Shown here: positions 5 through 32,157 of the stretch, in pieces
Layout: each line of letters starts with the position of its first letter
Position numbering within the stretch: the first letter of the stretch is position 1
Notes under the pieces: model-generated
The model's database searches: none
What the model was told of the DNA's origin: nothing
The model's input: the letters and a program-made list of their open reading frames with translations, nothing else
Virus genome (UHGV): UHGV-2031204
From: a virus
Length of the DNA stretch: 64,000 nt
Direction: 5' to 3' (one strand)
Position numbers and translations under genes: made by a program

Positions 5-523
5 GTGATGTCTGGAGAAACGCCAGAGTTTATCCTGGAAAGTATCTGCCGTTACGTATACGGTGATGACAATATCCATTTTGAAGATTTGGTCATTCGT
101 GTTTCACCCCGTGTAATGACGGTGATGCGCAACTATCTTTCAGCTATGGTTGTGGATGAACAGCTTGCTGTAGGTAACGATGCGCGTCTGACGCGTATTG
201 CAGAATACTTGCGTCTTTATCCGCAAAACCCTTCTGCGTTCGTATTCCTAAACCTACCTGAAGATCCCGATTTGACGGTTGTCCAACAATCGTTAGTGTT
301 TGACGTCGAAGATTACAGCGAAACAGAATTACTCGAGATGTATACGGTAGGGCTTTCGATTATCGATAACGATGACTTCGATGACGCGTATGCCGATCTT
401 TCGACGAACTTAGAGAAACTTAATAATGATGGGTTACAACCCATTACTGTTTTACAACCTGCATTAAAAAGCCTACGGCTGATTTATCAGGTTGAGGAGG
501 CAGAGCACGATGACGAGGTTTGA
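5..523 (+). CDS. hypothetical protein (possibly 5-prime truncated at window edge)
   Basis: ORF open from window start (GTG 5 / ATG 8); overlaps next gene by 14 nt; no motif recognised. Confidence 0.45.
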   Translation: MMSGETPEFILESICRYVYGDDNIHFEDLVIRVSPRVMTVMRNYLSAMVVDEQLAVGNDARLTRIAEYLRLYPQNPSAFVFLNLPEDPDLTVVQQSLVFDVEDYSETELLEMYTVGLSIIDNDDFDDAYADLSTNLEKLNNDGLQPITVLQPALKSLRLIYQVEEAEHDDEV

Positions 524-1811
524 GTTCTTAGTAGCGGCATGTAAAGCAGAGGCATGGCGACGTCTGGTCTGGCGCATTGCTATTTTTAACATGTCGGTAT
601 TTCCAACAGGGCGCGAAGAACCCGAAGCGTTTGATATAACGTATATCGACGGCTTACCGCATTATTACGCTGTAGAAGACGGCAAGGGCAGTTGGGAACC
701 GATTACTGACGGCGTAAAGGACCAGGAGCTGTTTGTCCCTGAAGAACAGTTCGAGCTACGCCCTGACGATTATCCCGGTTTAGACGGTCCTATTCCCACG
801 ACAGTAGGACGATACGTTTTTAACTGGATTGTTATCTGGTATGCATTTGGTACACGCTTACCCTATCTGGCGATTTCACAAAACCCGTTGGAATATCGCA
901 AAGAGATGCATCGGCGTTGTTTAGACCATGAAACCGATGAGCCAGAAAACGAAGGTGCAATTCGACCGAGTATGATTGAGCGCTTTGTAAGCGGTTTACA
1001 CGAACTCGCGCCACTTACGTCAGGGATTGCACCAACCGGTACGTTACGAAGTCTCACAGTGCATCCTGATGCGTATAAAATCCGCGATGCGTTACTGTTG
1101 AAGCACAAAGACGAGTTAGACGATCCTGCCGTTATCGTTAAGATTGAAAAAGCGTTGGATGAGTTAGACAAAGAATGGTTGTCGGGTGACCAATCTATTG
1201 AGTTTTATAACTCGCCGAAATCGCGGATGCGTCGACGTAAATTAATGCTGATGTACGGTATCGAATCGTCTTTTCAGGAAGGGGGTCATTACACGCTCAT
1301 TCCGAACGCGTTAGTTGAAGTTGATAAGGCGGGGATGGAAAACCTGGTTGCGAAATTCAACTCTATCCGTGAAGGTTCATTCTCTCGTGGTGCGGAAACA
1401 GCGAAAGGGGGTGAGCAGGTACGTATTATCCAGATGATTTTCCAGAACCACCGAATCGTCCCTGGTGACTGCGGAACGAAACTAACGTACCCGGTTGTGA
1501 TTACCGAAGATAACGTAAAACGTTACGTTGGGATGAATGCGATGGTTAATGGTAAACTGACACCATTGACTGAGGAATATTTAAAACAACAGTTAGGTAA
1601 GGTGGTGCGGTTACGCCGACCCATCTTATGTCAGTATGGCCACATCGACACCTGCACAGCGTGTTCGTCTGCGAATAAAGGGGAAGAACCTCGCGCAATC
1701 GCTGCGGATATATCCTCGGCGTTCTCTAACGTTATGTCCGTGGCAATGGCCGCGATGCATGGTAAAGAGACAGTGGTACACGAATTTAATCCATCGATCC
1801 ACATTACGTAA
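510..1811 (+). CDS. hypothetical protein
   Basis: ATG 510 preceded by AGGAGG at 495-500; 433 aa; function not recognisable by eye. Confidence 0.55.
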   Translation: MTRFEFLVAACKAEAWRRLVWRIAIFNMSVFPTGREEPEAFDITYIDGLPHYYAVEDGKGSWEPITDGVKDQELFVPEEQFELRPDDYPGLDGPIPTTVGRYVFNWIVIWYAFGTRLPYLAISQNPLEYRKEMHRRCLDHETDEPENEGAIRPSMIERFVSGLHELAPLTSGIAPTGTLRSLTVHPDAYKIRDALLLKHKDELDDPAVIVKIEKALDELDKEWLSGDQSIEFYNSPKSRMRRRKLMLMYGIESSFQEGGHYTLIPNALVEVDKAGMENLVAKFNSIREGSFSRGAETAKGGEQVRIIQMIFQNHRIVPGDCGTKLTYPVVITEDNVKRYVGMNAMVNGKLTPLTEEYLKQQLGKVVRLRRPILCQYGHIDTCTACSSANKGEEPRAIAADISSAFSNVMSVAMAAMHGKETVVHEFNPSIHIT

Positions 1812-1824
1812 GGATTATTAGCCA

Positions 1825-2334
1825 ATGGCAACTAAAGATATTTCGACACAAGATGAGCGCCCGGCAGCTGTAAGACGCGCTGAGGAAAATGCGGTAAATT
1901 ACAGCCAAGATGACGCGTACCAGGTGCGACTTATTGCTACTCAGCTCGATGAGGCTGGCGGGGCAATTAGCCAAAATAAACCGAAAGATACCCCAGAAGC
2001 TGACGACGCTTTCCGTAAGTTACATCAATCGTTCCGTACGTTGTTTGAACTTCGTGGTCAGGCATTCATTGATGCGTTCAATGTGTTCGTTGAGGCTGCA
2101 ATTAAACACAAGCGTGGTATCTTCTACTATCCTAATGTGAACTACCATTTAGATTGGTTTTACGATTCTGCTGAACGTGAAACATATGTCGTGTTTATCA
2201 ACATGTTAGTACGCTTCGCAAATTCTCAGGATAAAGCAAACTTTGCTCAGCGTGACAACGTTGGACGTTTGGTACAACGTGTGACCGATCCAGAGCTGCA
2301 ACACTTGCTGGCTTACTGCTTCAACGCGGCATAA
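1825..2334 (+). CDS. hypothetical protein
   Basis: 169 aa ORF ending just before bidirectional terminator at 2341-2380. Confidence 0.55.
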   Translation: MATKDISTQDERPAAVRRAEENAVNYSQDDAYQVRLIATQLDEAGGAISQNKPKDTPEADDAFRKLHQSFRTLFELRGQAFIDAFNVFVEAAIKHKRGIFYYPNVNYHLDWFYDSAERETYVVFINMLVRFANSQDKANFAQRDNVGRLVQRVTDPELQHLLAYCFNAA

Positions 2335-2340
2335 AAGTAT

Positions 2341-2380
2341 TACCCTACTCCCGAAGGAGTAGGGTAACGTTTATTTTTTT
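2341..2380. terminator. bidirectional rho-independent terminator between convergent genes
   Basis: Hairpin TACCCTACTCC-CGAAG-GAGTAGGGTA followed by T-run; near-identical copy at 7699-7726. Confidence 0.7.
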
Positions 2381-4160
2381 ACCGTGCAGCTTTGATGTAT
2401 TCAAAAGGATCGGTAATCGTTTCTCCTTGTCTACGTAGAAAAGCTTCTAAGACGACATTTTTATCGGGCAATAGGAAGAAATCTGTCGCGATTTCCATTG
2501 CATTGACGCGCCCCGCAGTAAGGTTAATACCGACACGACGCCGTACCTCTTCAGGAACACCGTGAATGCTCAGTAGCTCGATTAACGTTGTTTCACGAGA
2601 CTGGTTCATCATGTTCGTTGCAGATGGGTATGCCTGGGTTAAGTCAGCATCCGCAGTTTGCCCACGGAAAGCCGTGTAGAAATCATCAACTTCTTTGATG
2701 ATGTTTCGTAGCCCATTCTCTGCGTTCATACACGCAGTCAATGTAACAATCCAACCATCCGTCCCAATGACTTCATTGTCGAAATCGTTACGCATCGCGC
2801 TACCCACACAACCGATAACCAGGCCCTGTTCATAGAGGTAATACGTGTATGCAATACAGATTCGCTTCGGCAGAGAAGGGAAAATATCATACATCGAATA
2901 ACCCGCCAAAACTGAAATAGCAGAAGACAGATCGTTCGTCTTTTTATCGAGCAGAACAATCATCAAGTTATCGAAGATGTTATAAACGCAGTATTCTAAC
3001 GGGAAATCTTTCTGCGCCTTTAAGTGCCATTCCAACTTCTCCTCGTAGGGCAGTTCCGGTAAGTCCAACTTGTTTAAACCCAACTCGGTTTCCAGTATCG
3101 CGTTAAGTTTGTAAGAGGGGCGTTGTCCCTCGTGTACACGCAATGAACGGAATAGACACATTGCATCTACACAGTAGAATGACGCCGTACAATAAAGAAT
3201 GTGCCACTGTTGCGAAGGCGCTTTTGTTAATGACTTTGATTCCGTTTTCTTCGATGCTTCGTCTTTCTTAAAGTAGACACGACGGTACTGTTTTGGCACG
3301 TCAGGATGACAGAAGACGTCTTCCGGTGGAATCCCCGCAGCTTCTAAAGCTTCCAACATACGTGAAATATCGAACTCGTGGTTCCATGCGACGAGTAAGT
3401 CAGGAAGCCGAGGATGGATTTCCTCAAACATCCGTTGAATGCAACAACCTGAATTGAGGCATTCGTAAACGAAGATTTTGTAACCATCGATAACGTTTTT
3501 GTATTTAACGATAGGATTGTCGTTCTCGTCTTTTCCACGAAAAGCGATTTTAGAAAGCAATTCCTGAGCACGTTTGACGAGTCGCGCTTCAAAGTTTTCA
3601 CGCCCACAACGGGTGACGTAGTCTTTCGTAGCAAAGAAATGAATTTCGTCGTCTAAAACAAAACTCATAATCCAGGGGTCTCGAGACTTGTCTTCTTCTC
3701 GAGTTTCCACGTCGTATACACAGATGCGGTTAGGTGAAACAGCATTAGGCCATTTACGTATGTACTTTTCTTTAATCCAGCTAGTAATGGGCAAATCAGC
3801 CCAGTAAACATACGGTGAAGTACAAACCTGACGGAGTGGTTTCTTTTTATCGGGAAAACGAATCCCCAGACCCATCTGTATGGTTGAGGACATCATTACG
3901 TCCGTTGTTAAATATTCCTGGCACTTACTACGTTCTTCGTATTCTTTCTTTTCCTTGTGATTACGATGTTGTGGTAAAGTAATGTAGATGGGCCGTTTCA
4001 GATTTTCACGCATGACAATTCGTGGGATATATCTGCCATCTTTAGTATGGACGACCTCCTTTATGAGCACGAAGTCGTTTTCTTTCTGCTGATCGGTTGC
4101 GTAAGAAACAAACTTGCACTCCTTGGCAATAACGTCTTCCGGTGCGTAATAGTTATTCAT
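2379..4160 (-). CDS. DEDDy-type 3'-5' exonuclease domain protein (family B DNA polymerase-like proofreading domain; possible fragment of a split polymerase)
   Basis: Ordered motifs YDVETRE (Exo I), WNHEFD (Exo II), YCVDAM (Exo III, YCxxDA signature); no polymerase A/B/C motifs; start 4160 (MNNYY, GAGAG RBS) preferred over longest-ORF start 4274. Confidence 0.6.
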   Translation of the reverse strand: MNNYYAPEDVIAKECKFVSYATDQQKENDFVLIKEVVHTKDGRYIPRIVMRENLKRPIYITLPQHRNHKEKKEYEERSKCQEYLTTDVMMSSTIQMGLGIRFPDKKKPLRQVCTSPYVYWADLPITSWIKEKYIRKWPNAVSPNRICVYDVETREEDKSRDPWIMSFVLDDEIHFFATKDYVTRCGRENFEARLVKRAQELLSKIAFRGKDENDNPIVKYKNVIDGYKIFVYECLNSGCCIQRMFEEIHPRLPDLLVAWNHEFDISRMLEALEAAGIPPEDVFCHPDVPKQYRRVYFKKDEASKKTESKSLTKAPSQQWHILYCTASFYCVDAMCLFRSLRVHEGQRPSYKLNAILETELGLNKLDLPELPYEEKLEWHLKAQKDFPLEYCVYNIFDNLMIVLLDKKTNDLSSAISVLAGYSMYDIFPSLPKRICIAYTYYLYEQGLVIGCVGSAMRNDFDNEVIGTDGWIVTLTACMNAENGLRNIIKEVDDFYTAFRGQTADADLTQAYPSATNMMNQSRETTLIELLSIHGVPEEVRRRVGINLTAGRVNAMEIATDFFLLPDKNVVLEAFLRRQGETITDPFEYIKAAR

Positions 4161-4231
4161 GATTTCACTCTCAAATCTAGCGGCTGCTATACTGATTTGT
4201 GGGTAATGTAATTTCTCAAAAGGAAACACAA

Positions 4232-5566
4232 ATGGGATATTGGCAAAATCACATTGCATCAGTTGCGGATGCAAAGGTTGTAGCCGCAGAATCGATTAAA
4301 TTCCAAGACAAAAAGAAGCTGGCAGAATTGGCTGATATTATTGCTAAGTTTCGTGGAGCAGGCGATTTCAGTCCTGCTGGCTACGAAAGTGCCGGGGTTT
4401 CGGATTGGGTATTTAAGAATATCGGCATTACGATTCACTTTAAGAACGGTGGTGAACTGGGTCTTGCTGACGTTGCTTTTGCAGGTGTGGAACCACCGAA
4501 ATTGGATGCAAACAGTCCAATCATCGCATCGATGACTCGTGCGCTGTACGCAGGTAACAAAGACCTGGATATGTACAGTAAGTTCATCAAAGAAAACGAG
4601 CTAAACTCAACAATCGATGACAGCAGTGCAAAAATCAGTGGCGATCTGAGCAAAGTGGGTTCTCCGCTTTATCTTACCCCGGTGCTGTTGGAAAAATTAA
4701 ATTTGACCGATCTGGAAATCGCCTCGGTGATTCTTCACGAAGTCGGGCACATCTACTATTATTTCCGCACTCTGATGCGCACTGTGGTGACTGATTTGCT
4801 GGCGGATGCTGCGGCTAACCGCATCATGGAAACGGAAGACCAGAATGTCCGCTTGCGTATCGTTAAAGACGTAGAGAAGATGCTGAACACGAAAGTGAAT
4901 CAGCCAGAAACGATTTGTACTGAGTACAAAAAAGAAAACGTCTACATGCACTTGGTCACACAGCTGTTATTAGATCGTCCGTTTATTAGTGGCAGTCAAG
5001 GCTTTGCTAACAGAACGTGGGAACGTGCTGCGGACGATTTTGCTTCCCGTTTCGGAGGCGCTCCTTATCTGGCTTCCGCACTGTATAAAATGGAAACCAG
5101 TTCGTTCTATTTGCTGCGGAACTCAGCGTATATGAACATGGGTGTCCATTTGACAGTAGAACTTTTCCGCGTGACTGCGCTGATAGTCTCTTCTACGATT
5201 CCAATCATTCCGGTGATCTCCGTGACGTTCGGAATGATCTTAAATGACCCGGATAACACCATTTACGATCCGCCACAGCAGCGTTTTGAGGCAATGCGAC
5301 GTACACTCGTTGAAGAACTCAATACGATTAAAGACAAAAATACGAAAGCTGCTAACGAGCAACGTAAACGTATTTTAGATGGTATTGCGGTTATCGACAA
5401 GTTATTAGAAACCGTAAAAGATAAAGATAACTTGTACCAGTTTATCTGGAATACTTTAACGCCGAAGGGTCGTCGCTCACGTGCTGCAGTTGATTACCAG
5501 CGCGCGATTGGGAAGTATATGTCGAACGATCTTCGTATTGCTTCAGCCATGTTTAATGTCGAATAA
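4232..5566 (+). CDS. putative Zn-dependent metallopeptidase (HExxH, M48-like)
   Basis: HEVGH motif followed downstream by ERAADDFA motif; start 4232 with AAGGA RBS (longest ORF starts 4199). Confidence 0.55.
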   Translation: MGYWQNHIASVADAKVVAAESIKFQDKKKLAELADIIAKFRGAGDFSPAGYESAGVSDWVFKNIGITIHFKNGGELGLADVAFAGVEPPKLDANSPIIASMTRALYAGNKDLDMYSKFIKENELNSTIDDSSAKISGDLSKVGSPLYLTPVLLEKLNLTDLEIASVILHEVGHIYYYFRTLMRTVVTDLLADAAANRIMETEDQNVRLRIVKDVEKMLNTKVNQPETICTEYKKENVYMHLVTQLLLDRPFISGSQGFANRTWERAADDFASRFGGAPYLASALYKMETSSFYLLRNSAYMNMGVHLTVELFRVTALIVSSTIPIIPVISVTFGMILNDPDNTIYDPPQQRFEAMRRTLVEELNTIKDKNTKAANEQRKRILDGIAVIDKLLETVKDKDNLYQFIWNTLTPKGRRSRAAVDYQRAIGKYMSNDLRIASAMFNVE

Positions 5567-29862: not shown

Positions 29863-32157
29863 ATGAAAGATACCCGAATCTCTAATCTGGAGAAACTCGT
29901 ACAAGCTGGTAACTCGCTGGTACAAAGCGTCATTAGTAACAACAGTGCTGGCGAAATGTGGAACACCATCGTTGCTGGTGAGTCTGTACGTAGCAACACG
30001 AAAGTTTTTGGTACCCTGCGTGACGATGCTGCACAGCACTACGCAAACGCGTTTGCTGGCGGTAAGAAAATGTCCCACGCTGCGGAAGTTGCTTCTGCAA
30101 TGATTCTGGGTGCTGCTGGTCACGGTATGGACCTGCAAGAAAAAGTAGCGCAAGAATACGCTAAGCCAGAATTCCATAGCCGTTTTAACCTGGACGTTGC
30201 GATTCCTGGTTCCCAAGCTGGTAACGGCGACTGGGGCAAAGAGCGTATGGTTGTTGCTCAGGAATACTACACCAACAAAGATTACGACAAAAACCTGGGT
30301 CTGACCTGGACGCTGAACGTACGTGCTCTGGAAACTCAGTCTCGTTTTGCTGAGACTCTGTTCCCGACCATCACCGTTGACACCAACGATGTTGGTATTA
30401 CCGTACGTACCAAAGTGACCACCGTTTCTCGTGGTGTCATGCACGCGTTACTGACCAAAGACGTTGTTGAAGATCATCGTCGTAACCTGCACGAAGCGCT
30501 GACTGACCACACCGTTCTTCAGGACGAAGCGATCAACATCGTTCCTTACGTAATGGAAACCGGTGAAAACGCTGAATACTTCGTAAGCGAAGATCTGGTA
30601 CCGAACGAATCTGTTCGTCTGGGCCGCGTACCTCCGTACCCGACTAACTACCTGAGCTTTGCTAAAGACACTCTGAACCTGTTCCAGCTGTCTGCGCATC
30701 CGGGTATCGTTCAGGAAGGTTACGACGAAACTGATGAAATCGCACCGGGTTGTGCTCTGGGCAGCCTGCTGATTTCCGTACGTAAACCGACCGAAGAAGC
30801 GAAAGCAGGTAAATTCATCAAACTGCACGTTCGTGACATGCAGTTCGCAACCTTCCAGCGTCCTGCTGAAGGTGATGGTCGTGAGCTGGTACTGCAATTC
30901 CGTCGTACTGCGTTCTCTCTGAATGCGAAAACTACCGACTGGAAAGGCGAAGCTATTCCGGCACTGAAATCACTGGAACAGAACTCCTACACCCTGCGTT
31001 ATGTGATCACCATCAACATGTCTCTGTTCACTACCGGTCAGTTCGGTGGCAAAGTTGACATCGCTGGTCACAAACTGGAAATCGAAGGTCTGTACGACGC
31101 TACCGGTAACAAAGTTGATACCAAATCTGGTACCGGCAAAGTTATCCTGGACGGTCTGAAACTTGAACTGATGGGCTGGCGCTTCGATGGTACTCGTACC
31201 AACGAAAACCGTCGTACCCAGGGTCTGCTGCTCGACCCAATCTGGGAACAAGAAAACTACAAGCTGCAATACGGTTCTCCGATTCTGACCAAGTCTCCGG
31301 TTGGCGTTGAATACGACGATACCGAACGTCTGGACGACCTGATTTCCGCAGTTAACATCCGTAACGAACAGCTGGCTATCACTCAGACGCTGTCTTACAC
31401 CGAAGCGGTACGTAACGCTGCTGCAAGCATGATCACTCCGTGGGACAAACCGGCCATTCGTGGTCTGGGCCGTCACTGGGTTGCTCCGTGGTTCAAAGAG
31501 TCTGACTACAACGTTGATGAAGTTGTACAGTCCCTGGATACCAAAGATGCACTGATCAACGCTCGTCAGGGCCTGGTACAGCGTATCGGTAATCAGGTAA
31601 CTCAGGCTATCCAGGAATCTCGCTTCATTCCTGCGCTGCGTCTGTACACTGCCGATCCGGACATTCTGCCGAAAGTTGTTATTGCAACTGACGAACCGAC
31701 TGCATCTATGCTGCTGCTGGTACAGGGCGACCAACGTCTGCTGGGCGATCGCTACGAATACGAAGTGATCACCACCAACGATGACCGCTGGCGTATCTAC
31801 AACGCAGCTGACGGTTCCTGGACTCGTCGTCTGCAATGGTTCCTGAAAGTTCCGACTGCGGACGATGGTTCCTACAACGTGCTGAACTGGGGTAACCACT
31901 TCTGGTCTCCGATCATGGTTACCAACATCAACATTCAGCGTAACGGTTCTACCTCTAAAGAGCTGGCCGTACAGCCGCGTAACGCGCACATCTGCCACTG
32001 CCCGATCACTGGTCTGATCTGGGTTAAAGGCATCACCAAACTGGTTGAAGAAAAACTGGCTTACAATGTTTCTGTTGAACAGAACGGTCAGAAACAAACC
32101 GAAGGTGGTGTAGCAGGTAACGTTGCTGGCGAAGGCAAAGCTGCTGCTGGTAAGTAA
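29863..32157 (+). CDS. candidate major capsid protein (jumbo-phage type, 764 aa)
   Basis: Strongest codon bias in window, producing a large antisense shadow ORF; size like phiKZ-type capsid proteins; followed by strong terminator; no direct homology check possible. Confidence 0.45.
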   Translation: MKDTRISNLEKLVQAGNSLVQSVISNNSAGEMWNTIVAGESVRSNTKVFGTLRDDAAQHYANAFAGGKKMSHAAEVASAMILGAAGHGMDLQEKVAQEYAKPEFHSRFNLDVAIPGSQAGNGDWGKERMVVAQEYYTNKDYDKNLGLTWTLNVRALETQSRFAETLFPTITVDTNDVGITVRTKVTTVSRGVMHALLTKDVVEDHRRNLHEALTDHTVLQDEAINIVPYVMETGENAEYFVSEDLVPNESVRLGRVPPYPTNYLSFAKDTLNLFQLSAHPGIVQEGYDETDEIAPGCALGSLLISVRKPTEEAKAGKFIKLHVRDMQFATFQRPAEGDGRELVLQFRRTAFSLNAKTTDWKGEAIPALKSLEQNSYTLRYVITINMSLFTTGQFGGKVDIAGHKLEIEGLYDATGNKVDTKSGTGKVILDGLKLELMGWRFDGTRTNENRRTQGLLLDPIWEQENYKLQYGSPILTKSPVGVEYDDTERLDDLISAVNIRNEQLAITQTLSYTEAVRNAAASMITPWDKPAIRGLGRHWVAPWFKESDYNVDEVVQSLDTKDALINARQGLVQRIGNQVTQAIQESRFIPALRLYTADPDILPKVVIATDEPTASMLLLVQGDQRLLGDRYEYEVITTNDDRWRIYNAADGSWTRRLQWFLKVPTADDGSYNVLNWGNHFWSPIMVTNINIQRNGSTSKELAVQPRNAHICHCPITGLIWVKGITKLVEEKLAYNVSVEQNGQKQTEGGVAGNVAGEGKAAAGK

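What the first reader, a model, noticed from the sequence alone, without database searches (positions are those of the whole stretch)
2379..4160. Stand-alone DEDDy exonuclease with family B polymerase proofreading signature but no polymerase motifs
The minus-strand protein carries Exo I (YDVETRE), Exo II (WNHEFD) and Exo III (YCVDAM) motifs with polymerase-like spacing. I found no DxxSLYPS, KxxxNSxYG or YGDTDS motifs in this gene or its neighbours. It may be the exonuclease half of a split replicative polymerase, as reported for some jumbo phages, or an independent proofreading or processing nuclease.
Basis: partly seen in the sequence, partly recalled or inferred. Interest (0 to 1): 0.5.

Follow-up and report, generated by a model that had tools for sequence, protein, structure and literature searches.

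The report
Exonuclease-side subunit of split phage polymerase

Summary
The ORF at 2379-4160 (-) is real: 593 aa, ATG at 4160. It is the ortholog of Salmonella phage SPN3US gp44 (75% identity). It matches PHROG 3011 "DNA polymerase" end to end (E 5e-250). The literature already describes gp44 and gp18 as a split-subunit family B DNA polymerase of phiKZ-related phages.

Exo I (D150/E152) and Exo II (N260/D264) are correctly placed and essentially invariant in 57 homologs. It aligns to RB69 gp43 VLDYIDLY. The true Exo III is Y393-N-I-F-D397, matching RB69 Y323-NII-D327.

The claim "no polymerase motifs" is wrong. D504-A-D506-LTQAYPS matches RB69 motif A (D411-LTSLYPS) inside one collinear hhalign alignment (96.6%, E 5e-10). 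It is invariant in all 52 homologs that cover it.

The partner subunit (Pfam PF20286) is not in this window. It carries motifs B and C but has no invariant acidic residue N-terminal of motif B. The break therefore most likely lies inside the palm, and the polymerase active site is built from both polypeptides.

Verdict: a known kind of gene and an ordinary member. Interest is low, apart from a disagreement with two published domain assignments.

The parts
2379..4160 (-). Complete gene, 593 aa plus stop codon. It is the N-terminal ('exonuclease') subunit of a split family B DNA polymerase and the ortholog of SPN3US gp44.
   Evidence: ORF listing and translation. PHROG 3011 'DNA polymerase' E 5e-250 over aa 3-583. 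75% identity to SPN3US YP_009153338.1 and 80% to the Asesino protein.
3756..4160 (-). PolB-type N-terminal domain, approximately aa 1-135.
   Evidence: AlphaFold2 model, pLDDT above 85, beta-rich. The whole-model Foldseek top hits are RB69 gp43 and then Pol epsilon. The domain boundary is an estimate.
2931..3743 (-). 3'-5' exonuclease domain of DEDDy type, approximately aa 140-410.
   Evidence: hhalign of window aa 142-526 against RB69 106-431, probability 96.6%, E 5e-10. hmmsearch of the A1 profile against PDB finds RB69 gp43 at E 2e-5. pLDDT is mostly above 90.
3696..3716 (-). Exo I (YDVETRE). The catalytic residues are D150 and E152.
   Evidence: Coordinates. D150 and E152 are conserved 57/57. 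Aligned to RB69 'FDIEV', D114/E116.
3369..3386 (-). Exo II (WNHEFD). The key residues are N260, F263 and D264.
   Evidence: Coordinates. N260 and D264 are conserved 56/57. Aligned to RB69 'WNVESFD', D222.
3159..3176 (-). It is really the conserved non-catalytic strand that precedes Exo III.
   Evidence: Aligns to RB69 270-277 'VLDYIDLY', not to Y323/D327. Y329 is conserved in only 50/57 homologs.
2970..2984 (-). True Exo III, Y393-N-I-F-D397 (a Yx3D motif).
   Evidence: Y393 and D397 are conserved 57/57. Aligned to RB69 Y323-N-I-I-D327.
2622..2651 (-). Polymerase motif A, D504-A-D506-L-T-Q-A-Y511-P512-S513. D506 is the predicted metal-binding aspartate.
   Evidence: D504, D506 and Y511 are conserved 52/52 and P512 51/52. 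Aligned to RB69 D411-LTSLYPS within the collinear hhalign and hmmsearch alignments. A profile of this segment alone hits RB69 406-429, and 0 of 5000 shuffles reach its score.
2382..2798 (-). C-terminal segment, aa 455-593. It holds the first palm strand and helix (motif A) plus a conserved tail (E528, G550, N553). It is the presumed interface with the polymerase subunit.
   Evidence: pLDDT is below 50 for aa 455-535 and 540-554 in the isolated model, even though the sequence is strongly conserved. The interface role is an inference.
4166..4172 (-). Purine-rich Shine-Dalgarno-like stretch (GAGAGTG) 5-11 nt upstream of the ATG.
   Evidence: Read directly from the sequence printed. Inference only.
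2339..2368 (.). Bidirectional terminator-like hairpin (12-13 bp stem) between the 3' end of this gene and the convergent gene at 1825-2334.
   Evidence: Consensus scan found it on both strands, each followed by a T-rich tail. It is a pattern match, not proof of function.

Best explanation
The gene encodes the N-terminal subunit of the two-polypeptide family B replicative DNA polymerase found in phiKZ/SPN3US-type (chimallin-encoding) jumbo phages.

The protein has three parts. The first is a PolB N-terminal domain. The second is an intact DEDDy 3'-5' proofreading exonuclease with D150, E152, D264, Y393 and D397. The third is the first element of the palm domain, namely the strand and helix carrying motif A (D504-x-D506-LTQAYPS).

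The rest of the polymerase is a separate protein of the 'divDNApol' family (Pfam PF20286; SPN3US gp18). It carries the fingers with motif B, the motif C SDTDS hairpin, the KxY strand and the thumb. In relatives its gene lies about 28-30 kb away. It lies outside this window.

The most likely mechanism is as follows. The C-terminal ~140 residues of this protein dock onto the partner and complete its palm. The two catalytic metal ions are then held by D506 from this chain and by the motif C aspartates (SPN3US gp18 D419/D421) from the partner. Neither chain could polymerise alone. Mispaired 3' ends would be passed to the exonuclease site of this chain, as in RB69 or T4 gp43.

What is shown: the homology, the motif identities and their conservation, the fold of aa 1-450, the orthology and the co-occurrence of the two genes. 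What is inferred: heterodimer formation, the composite active site and the enzymatic activities.
For: Orthology:
- PHROG 3011 'DNA polymerase' matches at E 5e-250.
- 75-80% identity and conserved gene order with SPN3US gp44 and the Asesino homolog. The flanking genes are an RNAP beta-subunit gene (phrog_2962) and a gene whose SPN3US counterpart is annotated as a virion structural protein (phrog_2767, function unknown).
- SPN3US gp18 and gp44 are called split DNA polymerase subunits in PMC5694885 and PMC5105663.

PolB N-terminal, exonuclease and motif A homology:
- hmmsearch of the A1 profile against PDB gives RB69 gp43 at E 2e-5, in three collinear stretches.
- hhalign gives one alignment, window aa 142-526 against RB69 106-431, at 96.6% probability and E 5e-10.
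- Foldseek of the AlphaFold2 model gives RB69 gp43 at E 2e-13.

Conservation. D150, E152, Y393 and D397 are 57/57. N260 and D264 are 56/57. D504, D506 and Y511 are 52/52.

The motif A segment alone finds RB69 406-429, and 0 of 5000 shuffles reach its score.

The partner subunit:
- Pfam PF20286 matches at E 6e-284.
- Motif B (Q153, K157, N160, N161, S164, G165) aligns to the Pol zeta fingers.
- Motif C (S418-D419-T-D421) and K497-H-Y499 are invariant.
- No column is at least 95% acidic anywhere N-terminal of motif B.

Both half-palms have low confidence when modelled alone. These are aa 455-555 of this protein and aa 415-422 and 480-526 of gp18.

Co-occurrence. The exonuclease subunit is in 300 phage records and the polymerase subunit in 302. 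The counts for most listed genera are identical.

Family breadth. 1561 cluster representatives match. The top 150 are 489-894 aa long (one of 894 aa, the rest at most 699 aa), and none is a fused form of about 1300 aa.

A distant lineage (P0063, which hits Pfam PF03104) ends with the same arrangement, '...DYDMGAFYPS' about 70 aa before its C-terminus.

Against: - No experiment or complex model was available here. Heterodimer formation and the composite active site are inferred.
- Two published analyses place the whole polymerase module in the partner protein. Kazlauskas and Venclovas 2011 (PMC3201878) name both active-site aspartates there (phage EL D229 and D398). Iyer et al. 2021 (PMC7824862) describe this gene only as a stand-alone exonuclease.
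- The window protein has no Pfam hit of its own, and a single-sequence search of PDB finds nothing meaningful.
- The motif A stretch taken alone is individually weak in the hmmsearch against PDB (1.6 bits).
- The partner gene is not in the window, so its presence in this particular genome is assumed from relatives.
Confidence: 0.88

Rival explanations
1. The protein is the exonuclease subunit, but the partner holds a complete palm, as the published view has it. On this reading the motif-A-like string is a vestige of the ancestral full-length PolB. It is kept only for folding or docking and does not act in catalysis.
For: PMC3201878 reports both active-site aspartates in the phage EL polymerase protein. 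PMC7824862 draws a full RRM-type palm for the partner. The isolated motif A stretch scores weakly by itself in the hmmsearch against PDB.
Against: Phage EL D229 maps to SPN3US gp18 N226. That column reads D24/N7/E1 of 32. It lies C-terminal of motif B, inside an all-helical, high-confidence insert, which breaks the A-B-C motif order.

No invariant acidic residue exists N-terminal of motif B in the partner.

D504, D506 and Y511 are as conserved as the exonuclease catalytic residues across homologs down to about 29% identity.

Group I introns in relatives sit at or just upstream of this motif. That fits the known tendency of such introns to sit in the most constrained catalytic sequence (general knowledge).
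Confidence: 0.1
2. The protein is a genuinely independent nuclease, for DNA processing, recombination or host DNA degradation. It descends from a polymerase but no longer works with one.
For: The gene is encoded far from the polymerase gene, among genes whose SPN3US counterparts are annotated as virion structural protein and RNA polymerase subunit. Iyer et al. call it a stand-alone protein (PMC7824862).
Against: Its distribution matches that of the polymerase subunit almost one-to-one. Scattering of functionally linked genes is the norm in these genomes, for example SbcC/SbcD and the RNAP subunits (PMC5105663). The invariant motif A and C-terminal tail have no role in a free nuclease and are predicted disordered alone. 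In the partner family searches, the only Pfam domains on record are PF20286 and PF00136, with no exonuclease domain, so the polymerase would lack proofreading.
Confidence: 0.02

Closest known systems
SPN3US gp44 (YP_009153338.1) with gp18 (YP_009153312.1): the split-subunit DNA polymerase of Seoulvirus-type jumbo phages
   Same: 75% identity over the full length. It lies on the same strand with the same neighbours: an RNAP beta subunit gene on one side and, on the other, a gene whose SPN3US counterpart is annotated as a virion structural protein. All motifs are shared. It is described as a polymerase subunit in PMC5694885.
   Different: Nothing substantive; this is an ortholog from a related phage. 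The closest database protein is 95% identical and is labelled as an E. coli TPA entry.
phiKZ, EL, OBP and 201phi2-1 exonuclease protein plus divergent PolB ('PolBrPhiKZ' of Kazlauskas and Venclovas 2011; 'divergent family B polymerase' of group 1 jumbo phages in Iyer 2021; Pfam PF20286 for the partner)
   Same: It is the same two-gene arrangement and the same protein family, at about 27-34% identity. The genes are always separate and scattered in the genome.
   Different: The published descriptions assign motif A to the polymerase protein (phage EL D229), or do not mention it in the exonuclease protein. Here motif A maps to the exonuclease protein, and the EL D229 column is not conserved.
Bacillus phage AR9 gp132 and gp152
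   Same: [quoted passage not shown] This is the architecture inferred here.
   Different: AR9 infects a Gram-positive host and is very distant. No direct sequence comparison was made here.
Naturally split gp43 of some T4-related phages, and the split PolB of Methanothermobacter thermautotrophicus (Petrov et al. 2006 and 2010; Kelman et al. 1999, as summarised in PMC3061061)
   Same: These are family B polymerases made from two polypeptides, with the break inside the polymerase module: in the fingers for the T4-like phages and in the palm for Mth. Catalytic motifs therefore come from two chains.
   Different: In the T4-like phages the two genes are adjacent or up to 3 kb apart, and the proteins are conventional PolBs. 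Here the genes lie about 28-30 kb apart in relatives. The break falls between motif A and the fingers. The C-terminal subunit is highly divergent, with a helical insert of about 200 aa between motifs B and C.
RB69 and T4 gp43 (single-chain PolB; solved structures such as 1ih7 and 1ig9)
   Same: They share the fold of the N-terminal and exonuclease domains, the Exo I, II and III motifs, and motif A with the following 'N-x-S-x-ET' helix.
   Different: Only about 15% identity. The window protein stops about 70 aa after motif A. It has no fingers, motif B, motif C or thumb.

Membership tests
Family B DNA polymerase 3'-5' exonuclease (DEDDy) module | Exo I motif DxE, with both acidic residues present | tested here: met
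   D150 and E152 are conserved 57/57. They align to RB69 D114/E116.
Family B DNA polymerase 3'-5' exonuclease (DEDDy) module | Exo II motif Nx2-3(F/Y)D | tested here: met
   N260-H-E-F263-D264. N and D are conserved 56/57. Aligns to RB69 N-V-E-S-F-D222.
Family B DNA polymerase 3'-5' exonuclease (DEDDy) module | Exo III motif Yx3D | tested here: met
The motif is met at Y393/D397 (57/57), aligned to RB69 Y323/D327.
Family B DNA polymerase 3'-5' exonuclease (DEDDy) module | PolB N-terminal plus exonuclease fold | tested here: met
   In the AlphaFold2 model, aa 1-450 are mostly above pLDDT 85. Foldseek against PDB gives RB69 gp43 at E 2e-13, followed by Pol epsilon.
Family B DNA polymerase 3'-5' exonuclease (DEDDy) module | Passes the curated Pfam model PF03104 (DNA_pol_B_exo1) | tested here: not met
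   The window protein has no Pfam family at E up to 1 other than a spurious integrin hit. Only the distant relative P0063 passes PF03104, at 26.8 bits against a cutoff of 23. Membership therefore rests on profile-profile and fold evidence.
Family B DNA polymerase 3'-5' exonuclease (DEDDy) module | 3'-5' exonuclease activity | not testable with these tools
   This needs an assay of the recombinant protein or complex.
phiKZ/SPN3US-type split PolB, N-terminal (exonuclease) subunit (PHROG 3011) | Full-length match to the family profile and orthology with SPN3US gp44 | tested here: met
   PHROG 3011 matches at E 5e-250, aa 3-583 against profile positions 2-573 of 576. 75% identity to SPN3US gp44 with conserved neighbours.
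phiKZ/SPN3US-type split PolB, N-terminal (exonuclease) subunit (PHROG 3011) | Ends shortly after motif A, with no fingers, motif B, motif C or thumb in the same chain | tested here: met
   Motif A is at aa 504-513 and the stop follows aa 593. No motif B or C was found. The same architecture holds for the 150 best family representatives.
phiKZ/SPN3US-type split PolB, N-terminal (exonuclease) subunit (PHROG 3011) | A separate PF20286-type polymerase subunit encoded in the same genome | tested here: inconclusive
   It is absent from the 64-kb window. In relatives it lies about 28-30 kb upstream of the exonuclease gene, which would fall outside the window. The two genes co-occur in 300 versus 302 phage records.
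phiKZ/SPN3US-type split PolB, N-terminal (exonuclease) subunit (PHROG 3011) | Physical association of the two subunits into an active polymerase | not testable with these tools
   No multimer prediction or experiment was available. I found no solved structure of the family.
Complete single-chain family B DNA polymerase | Motif A (DxxSLYPS) | tested here: met
   D506-LTQAYPS aligns to RB69 D411-LTSLYPS.
Complete single-chain family B DNA polymerase | Motif B (KxxxNSxYG) and motif C (YGDTDS) in the same polypeptide | tested here: not met
   Neither motif is in the ORF or anywhere in the window. They are found in the partner family instead, as K157-TLNNGMSG and S418-DTDS in SPN3US gp18.

The most novel reading that the evidence does not exclude
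The polymerase active site of the phiKZ/Chimalliviridae replicase may be composite. On this reading the motif A metal-binding aspartate (D506 here) sits on the 'exonuclease' protein, and motifs B and C sit on a second protein encoded tens of kilobases away. The published assignments would then need correcting: phage EL D229 as the motif A aspartate, a self-contained palm in the divergent PolB, and the exonuclease as a mere stand-alone accessory. Neither gene product could polymerise DNA alone.
Probability: 0.75. Interest if true: 0.4.

Novelty: already known. Interest (0 to 1): 0.2.

Why it matters
For genome annotation, this gene should be labelled 'DNA polymerase, N-terminal (exonuclease plus motif A) subunit'. 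It should not be labelled a hypothetical protein or a stand-alone nuclease.

There is a wider point. If the palm is really shared between two chains, anyone trying to reconstitute or inhibit the replicase of nucleus-forming jumbo phages must co-express both proteins. That group includes therapeutic candidates such as the phiKZ-like phages. The domain maps in two widely cited comparative papers would also need a small correction.

This is not a new kind of system. Split family B polymerases with breaks inside the polymerase module are already known in T4-related phages and in Methanothermobacter.

Tried and rejected
- Direct Pfam scan of the window protein: no family found, only a spurious integrin hit at E 0.17.
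- Single-sequence phmmer against PDB: only chance CDK7 matches at E above 1. The signal appeared only with a profile of homologs.
- The longer TTG-initiated ORF reaching 4274: rejected, because every homolog starts at the ATG-equivalent methionine.
- Search for the partner polymerase inside the window, by regular expression for motifs A, B and C in six frames and by tblastn with SPN3US gp18: nothing found.
- Alternative motif A candidates in the partner subunit were all rejected:
  - D17 and D19 at the N-terminus: D19 is D20/N10 of 32.
  - D77: 30/32, in a hairpin turn.
  - Position 226, the equivalent of the published phage EL D229: D24/N7/E1.
  - D288: invariant, but inside an all-helical insert C-terminal of motif B.
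- Foldseek of the partner's AlphaFold2 model against PDB: no significant match. The best hits were HSV1 polymerase at E 0.64 and RB69 gp43 at E 0.9. hhalign of the partner profile against the single RB69 sequence recovered only the KxY region, at 14% probability.
- About 480-aa 'truncated' homologs first looked like family members without motif A. For the two loci inspected (L004, L007) this was rejected: each gene is interrupted by a group I intron and the rest of the coding region continues downstream; the motif A exon is clear in L004.
- The Cornelissen et al. 2012 paper (PMC3264338), which first described the split, is not held in the library. Whether it already placed motif A in the N-terminal subunit could not be checked.
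- No Rfam family and no tRNA gene was found in the window.
Full report
**What is at the coordinates.** The minus strand between 2379 and 4160 holds one uninterrupted ORF of 593 codons, starting at the ATG at 4160. A purine-rich GAGAGTG lies 5-11 nt upstream of that ATG. A longer frame from a TTG at 4274 exists, but no homolog uses it.

The gene converges on the + strand gene at 1825-2334. A 12-13 bp hairpin with T-rich tails on both strands sits between them at 2339-2368. The gene diverges from the + strand gene that starts near 4199.

**Which genome this is.** The window is from a SPN3US/Asesino-type jumbo phage of Enterobacteria. About a third of the first 20 kb matches Erwinia and Salmonella giant phages at roughly 75% nucleotide identity. 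The target protein is 80% identical to the Erwinia phage Asesino homolog and 75% identical to SPN3US YP_009153338.1 (gp44), which RefSeq annotates as 'DNA polymerase'. Gene order is conserved. An RNA polymerase beta-subunit fragment (phrog_2962) and a small protein of unknown function lie on one side. On the other lies phrog_2767 (function unknown), whose SPN3US counterpart is annotated as a virion structural protein.

**Checking the observation.** I aligned 29 homologs, and later 57, down to about 29% identity. I compared the resulting profile with solved structures and with RB69 gp43 by hhalign.
- Exo I is right. D150 and E152 are conserved 57/57 and align to RB69 D114/E116.
- Exo II is right. 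N260 and D264 are conserved 56/57 and align to RB69 D222.
- The third motif is wrong. 'YCVDAM' aligns to the RB69 strand VLDYIDLY, and its tyrosine is conserved in only 50/57 sequences.
- The real Yx3D motif is Y393-N-I-F-D397. It is conserved 57/57 and aligns to RB69 Y323-N-I-I-D327.

So the DEDDy catalytic set is complete, but it sits at 150/152/264/393/397.

At aa 504-513 the protein reads D-A-D-L-T-Q-A-Y-P-S, followed by N519-x-S521-x-E523-T524. RB69 and T4 motif A reads D411-L-T-S-L-Y-P-S, followed by N-I-S-P-E-T.
- The hhalign alignment with RB69 gp43 is one collinear block, window aa 142-526 against RB69 106-431. It has 96.6% probability and E 5e-10, and it runs through this motif.
- hmmsearch against PDB finds the same pairing as its third collinear stretch.
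- A profile built from window aa 495-530 alone picks RB69 residues 406-429 as its best match. None of 5000 shuffles of RB69 reaches that score.
- D504, D506 and Y511 are invariant in all 52 homologs that cover the region (P512 in 51/52). They are as conserved as the exonuclease catalytic residues.

Motifs B and C are indeed absent from the gene and from the whole window.

**Structure.** The AlphaFold2 model built on the 29-sequence alignment has mean pLDDT 80.7. Residues 1-450 are mostly above 85-90. Residues 455-535 and 540-554 are below 50. Foldseek against PDB returns RB69 gp43 first (E 2e-13, about 480 aligned columns), followed by Pol epsilon catalytic cores. The confident part is therefore a PolB N-terminal plus exonuclease module. 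The highly conserved motif A segment does not fold confidently on its own.

**The partner.** The literature already states that phiKZ-related phages encode their family B polymerase as two polypeptides.
- Kazlauskas and Venclovas 2011 found the divergent polymerase and noted the separate exonuclease ORF (PMC3201878).
- Iyer et al. 2021 describe the divergent PolB, using YP_009153312.1 (SPN3US gp18) as example, as lacking a fused exonuclease that is 'encoded elsewhere' (PMC7824862).

I retrieved SPN3US gp18 (759 aa). It matches Pfam PF20286 'Divergent Family B DNA polymerase' at E 6e-284.

In a 31-sequence alignment of this family, three sets of residues are invariant:
- Q153, K157, N160, N161, S164 and G165, which form motif B;
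- S418-D419-T-D421, which form motif C;
- K497-H-Y499, the KxY strand.

The motif B stretch aligns to the Pol zeta fingers and motif B. The KxY region aligns weakly to RB69 705-708.

No column N-terminal of motif B is at least 95% acidic. The aspartate published as the motif A residue of phage EL (D229) maps to N226 of SPN3US gp18. That column reads D24/N7/E1 of 32. It lies C-terminal of motif B, inside a confidently helical insert. It cannot be motif A without breaking the universal A-B-C order.

In the AlphaFold2 model of gp18, the palm pieces (aa 415-422 and 480-526) are also below pLDDT 50.

**Inference on mechanism.** The PolB is broken between motif A and the fingers. This protein contributes the first palm strand and helix, with the metal-binding D506. 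The partner contributes the fingers, the motif C hairpin, the KxY strand and the thumb.

The roughly 70 residues after motif A here, and the roughly 80 residues before the fingers in the partner, are conserved family-specific sequence. They probably form the interface. This part is inferred; I could not run a multimer prediction.

[quoted passage not shown] It also has precedent in the naturally split gp43 of some T4-related phages (break in the fingers) and in Methanothermobacter PolB (break in the palm), as summarised in PMC3061061.

**Distribution.** tblastn finds the exonuclease subunit in 300 phage records and the polymerase subunit in 302. The counts for most listed genera are identical: Pseudomonas 81, Erwinia 62, Vibrio 23, Serratia 21, Aeromonas 20, Klebsiella 16 and Ralstonia 13. 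In the records where both positions were listed, the two genes lie tens of kilobases apart. In Asesino, for example, they are at 42.2-44.0 kb and 12.2-14.4 kb. In the window's orientation the partner would lie upstream of position 1.

A profile search of 1.84 billion representatives finds 1561 family members. The best 150 are 489-894 aa long (one of 894 aa, the rest at most 699 aa), and none is a fused form of about 1300 aa. The split is therefore the fixed state of the lineage. A more distant 610-aa protein that passes Pfam PF03104 also ends about 70 aa after a 'DYDMGAFYPS' motif.

**Side observation.** Some relatives looked truncated at about 480-490 aa. In L004 the gene is interrupted by a group I intron (Rfam RF00028, 51.4 bits) just upstream of a 105-codon exon that carries motif A. 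In L007 a group I intron (65.3 bits) sits inside motif A, directly after '...GDLD'. Five of the ~490-aa representatives whose sequences were read end exactly at the D-x-D of motif A. Such introns typically lodge in the most conserved catalytic sequence (general knowledge). This fits a functional motif A. The window's gene has no intron.

**Verdict.** The feature is real and the gene is intact. It is an ordinary ortholog of a known protein, the N-terminal subunit of the phiKZ/SPN3US-type split family B DNA polymerase. Two details are wrong: Exo III is misplaced, and motif A was overlooked. The 'independent nuclease' alternative is not supported.

The only mildly new point is that motif A lies on this subunit. 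That disagrees with the domain assignment in two published comparative analyses and implies a two-chain active site. It is an inference from sequence and models, it is partly anticipated by the AR9 annotation, and it needs a multimer model or biochemistry.

Noticed in passing
window 2339-2368: A 12-13 bp GC-containing hairpin (GTTACCCTACTCC-TTCG-GGAGTAGGGTAA) with T-rich tails on both strands. It lies between the convergent genes 1825-2334 (+) and 2379-4160 (-) and looks like a bidirectional intrinsic terminator.
   Followed up: partly
L004:5443-5864 and L007:4072-4405: Group I introns (Rfam RF00028; 51.4 and 65.3 bits) interrupt the exonuclease-subunit gene in metagenomic relatives. One lies just upstream of the motif A exon. 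The other lies inside motif A, directly after '...GDLD'. Five ~490-aa family representatives whose sequences were read end exactly at that point.
   Followed up: partly
L006:22489-24591 (phage EL gp21) and L002:3545-5824 (SPN3US gp18): The aspartate published as the motif A residue of the phage EL polymerase (D229, PMC3201878) corresponds to N226 in SPN3US gp18. That column is not conserved (D24/N7/E1 of 32). It lies after motif B in a helical insert, so the published assignment looks wrong.
   Followed up: yes
P0188 (894 aa; family representative): One family member carries an extra acidic, alanine-rich extension of about 330 aa after the normal C-terminus. Its function is unknown.
   Followed up: no
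P0063 (610 aa, contig of 281,782 bp): A distant protein (E 6e-6 to the query) passes Pfam PF03104 and has the same architecture. It ends about 70 aa after a 'DYDMGAFYPS' motif A. This suggests a second phage lineage with a PolB split at the same place.
   Followed up: partly
P0051-P0054, P0058, P0061; hits H40, H109 and H110 (Salmonella phage SPFM records): Several SPFM phage records give proteins of normal length that have only short or low-identity local matches to both polymerase subunits. This is probably a sequence-quality problem in those records, not biology.
   Followed up: no
P0001: The nearest database protein (95% identity) is labelled as an Escherichia coli TPA hypothetical protein. 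Its cluster holds 467 member sequences. Near relatives of this phage therefore seem frequent in E. coli-associated sequencing data.
   Followed up: no
window 492-1811 (+): The gene two positions downstream of the target's 3' end is a fragment-sized RNA polymerase beta-subunit gene (phrog_2962, E 3e-169). It is another example of the split, scattered multisubunit enzymes typical of these phages.
   Followed up: partly
window 30001-32000: A local GC rise to 0.517, against about 0.45 elsewhere. Long ORFs overlap on both strands here: 29863-32157 (+, 764 aa) and 30970-32097 (-, 375 aa).
   Followed up: no
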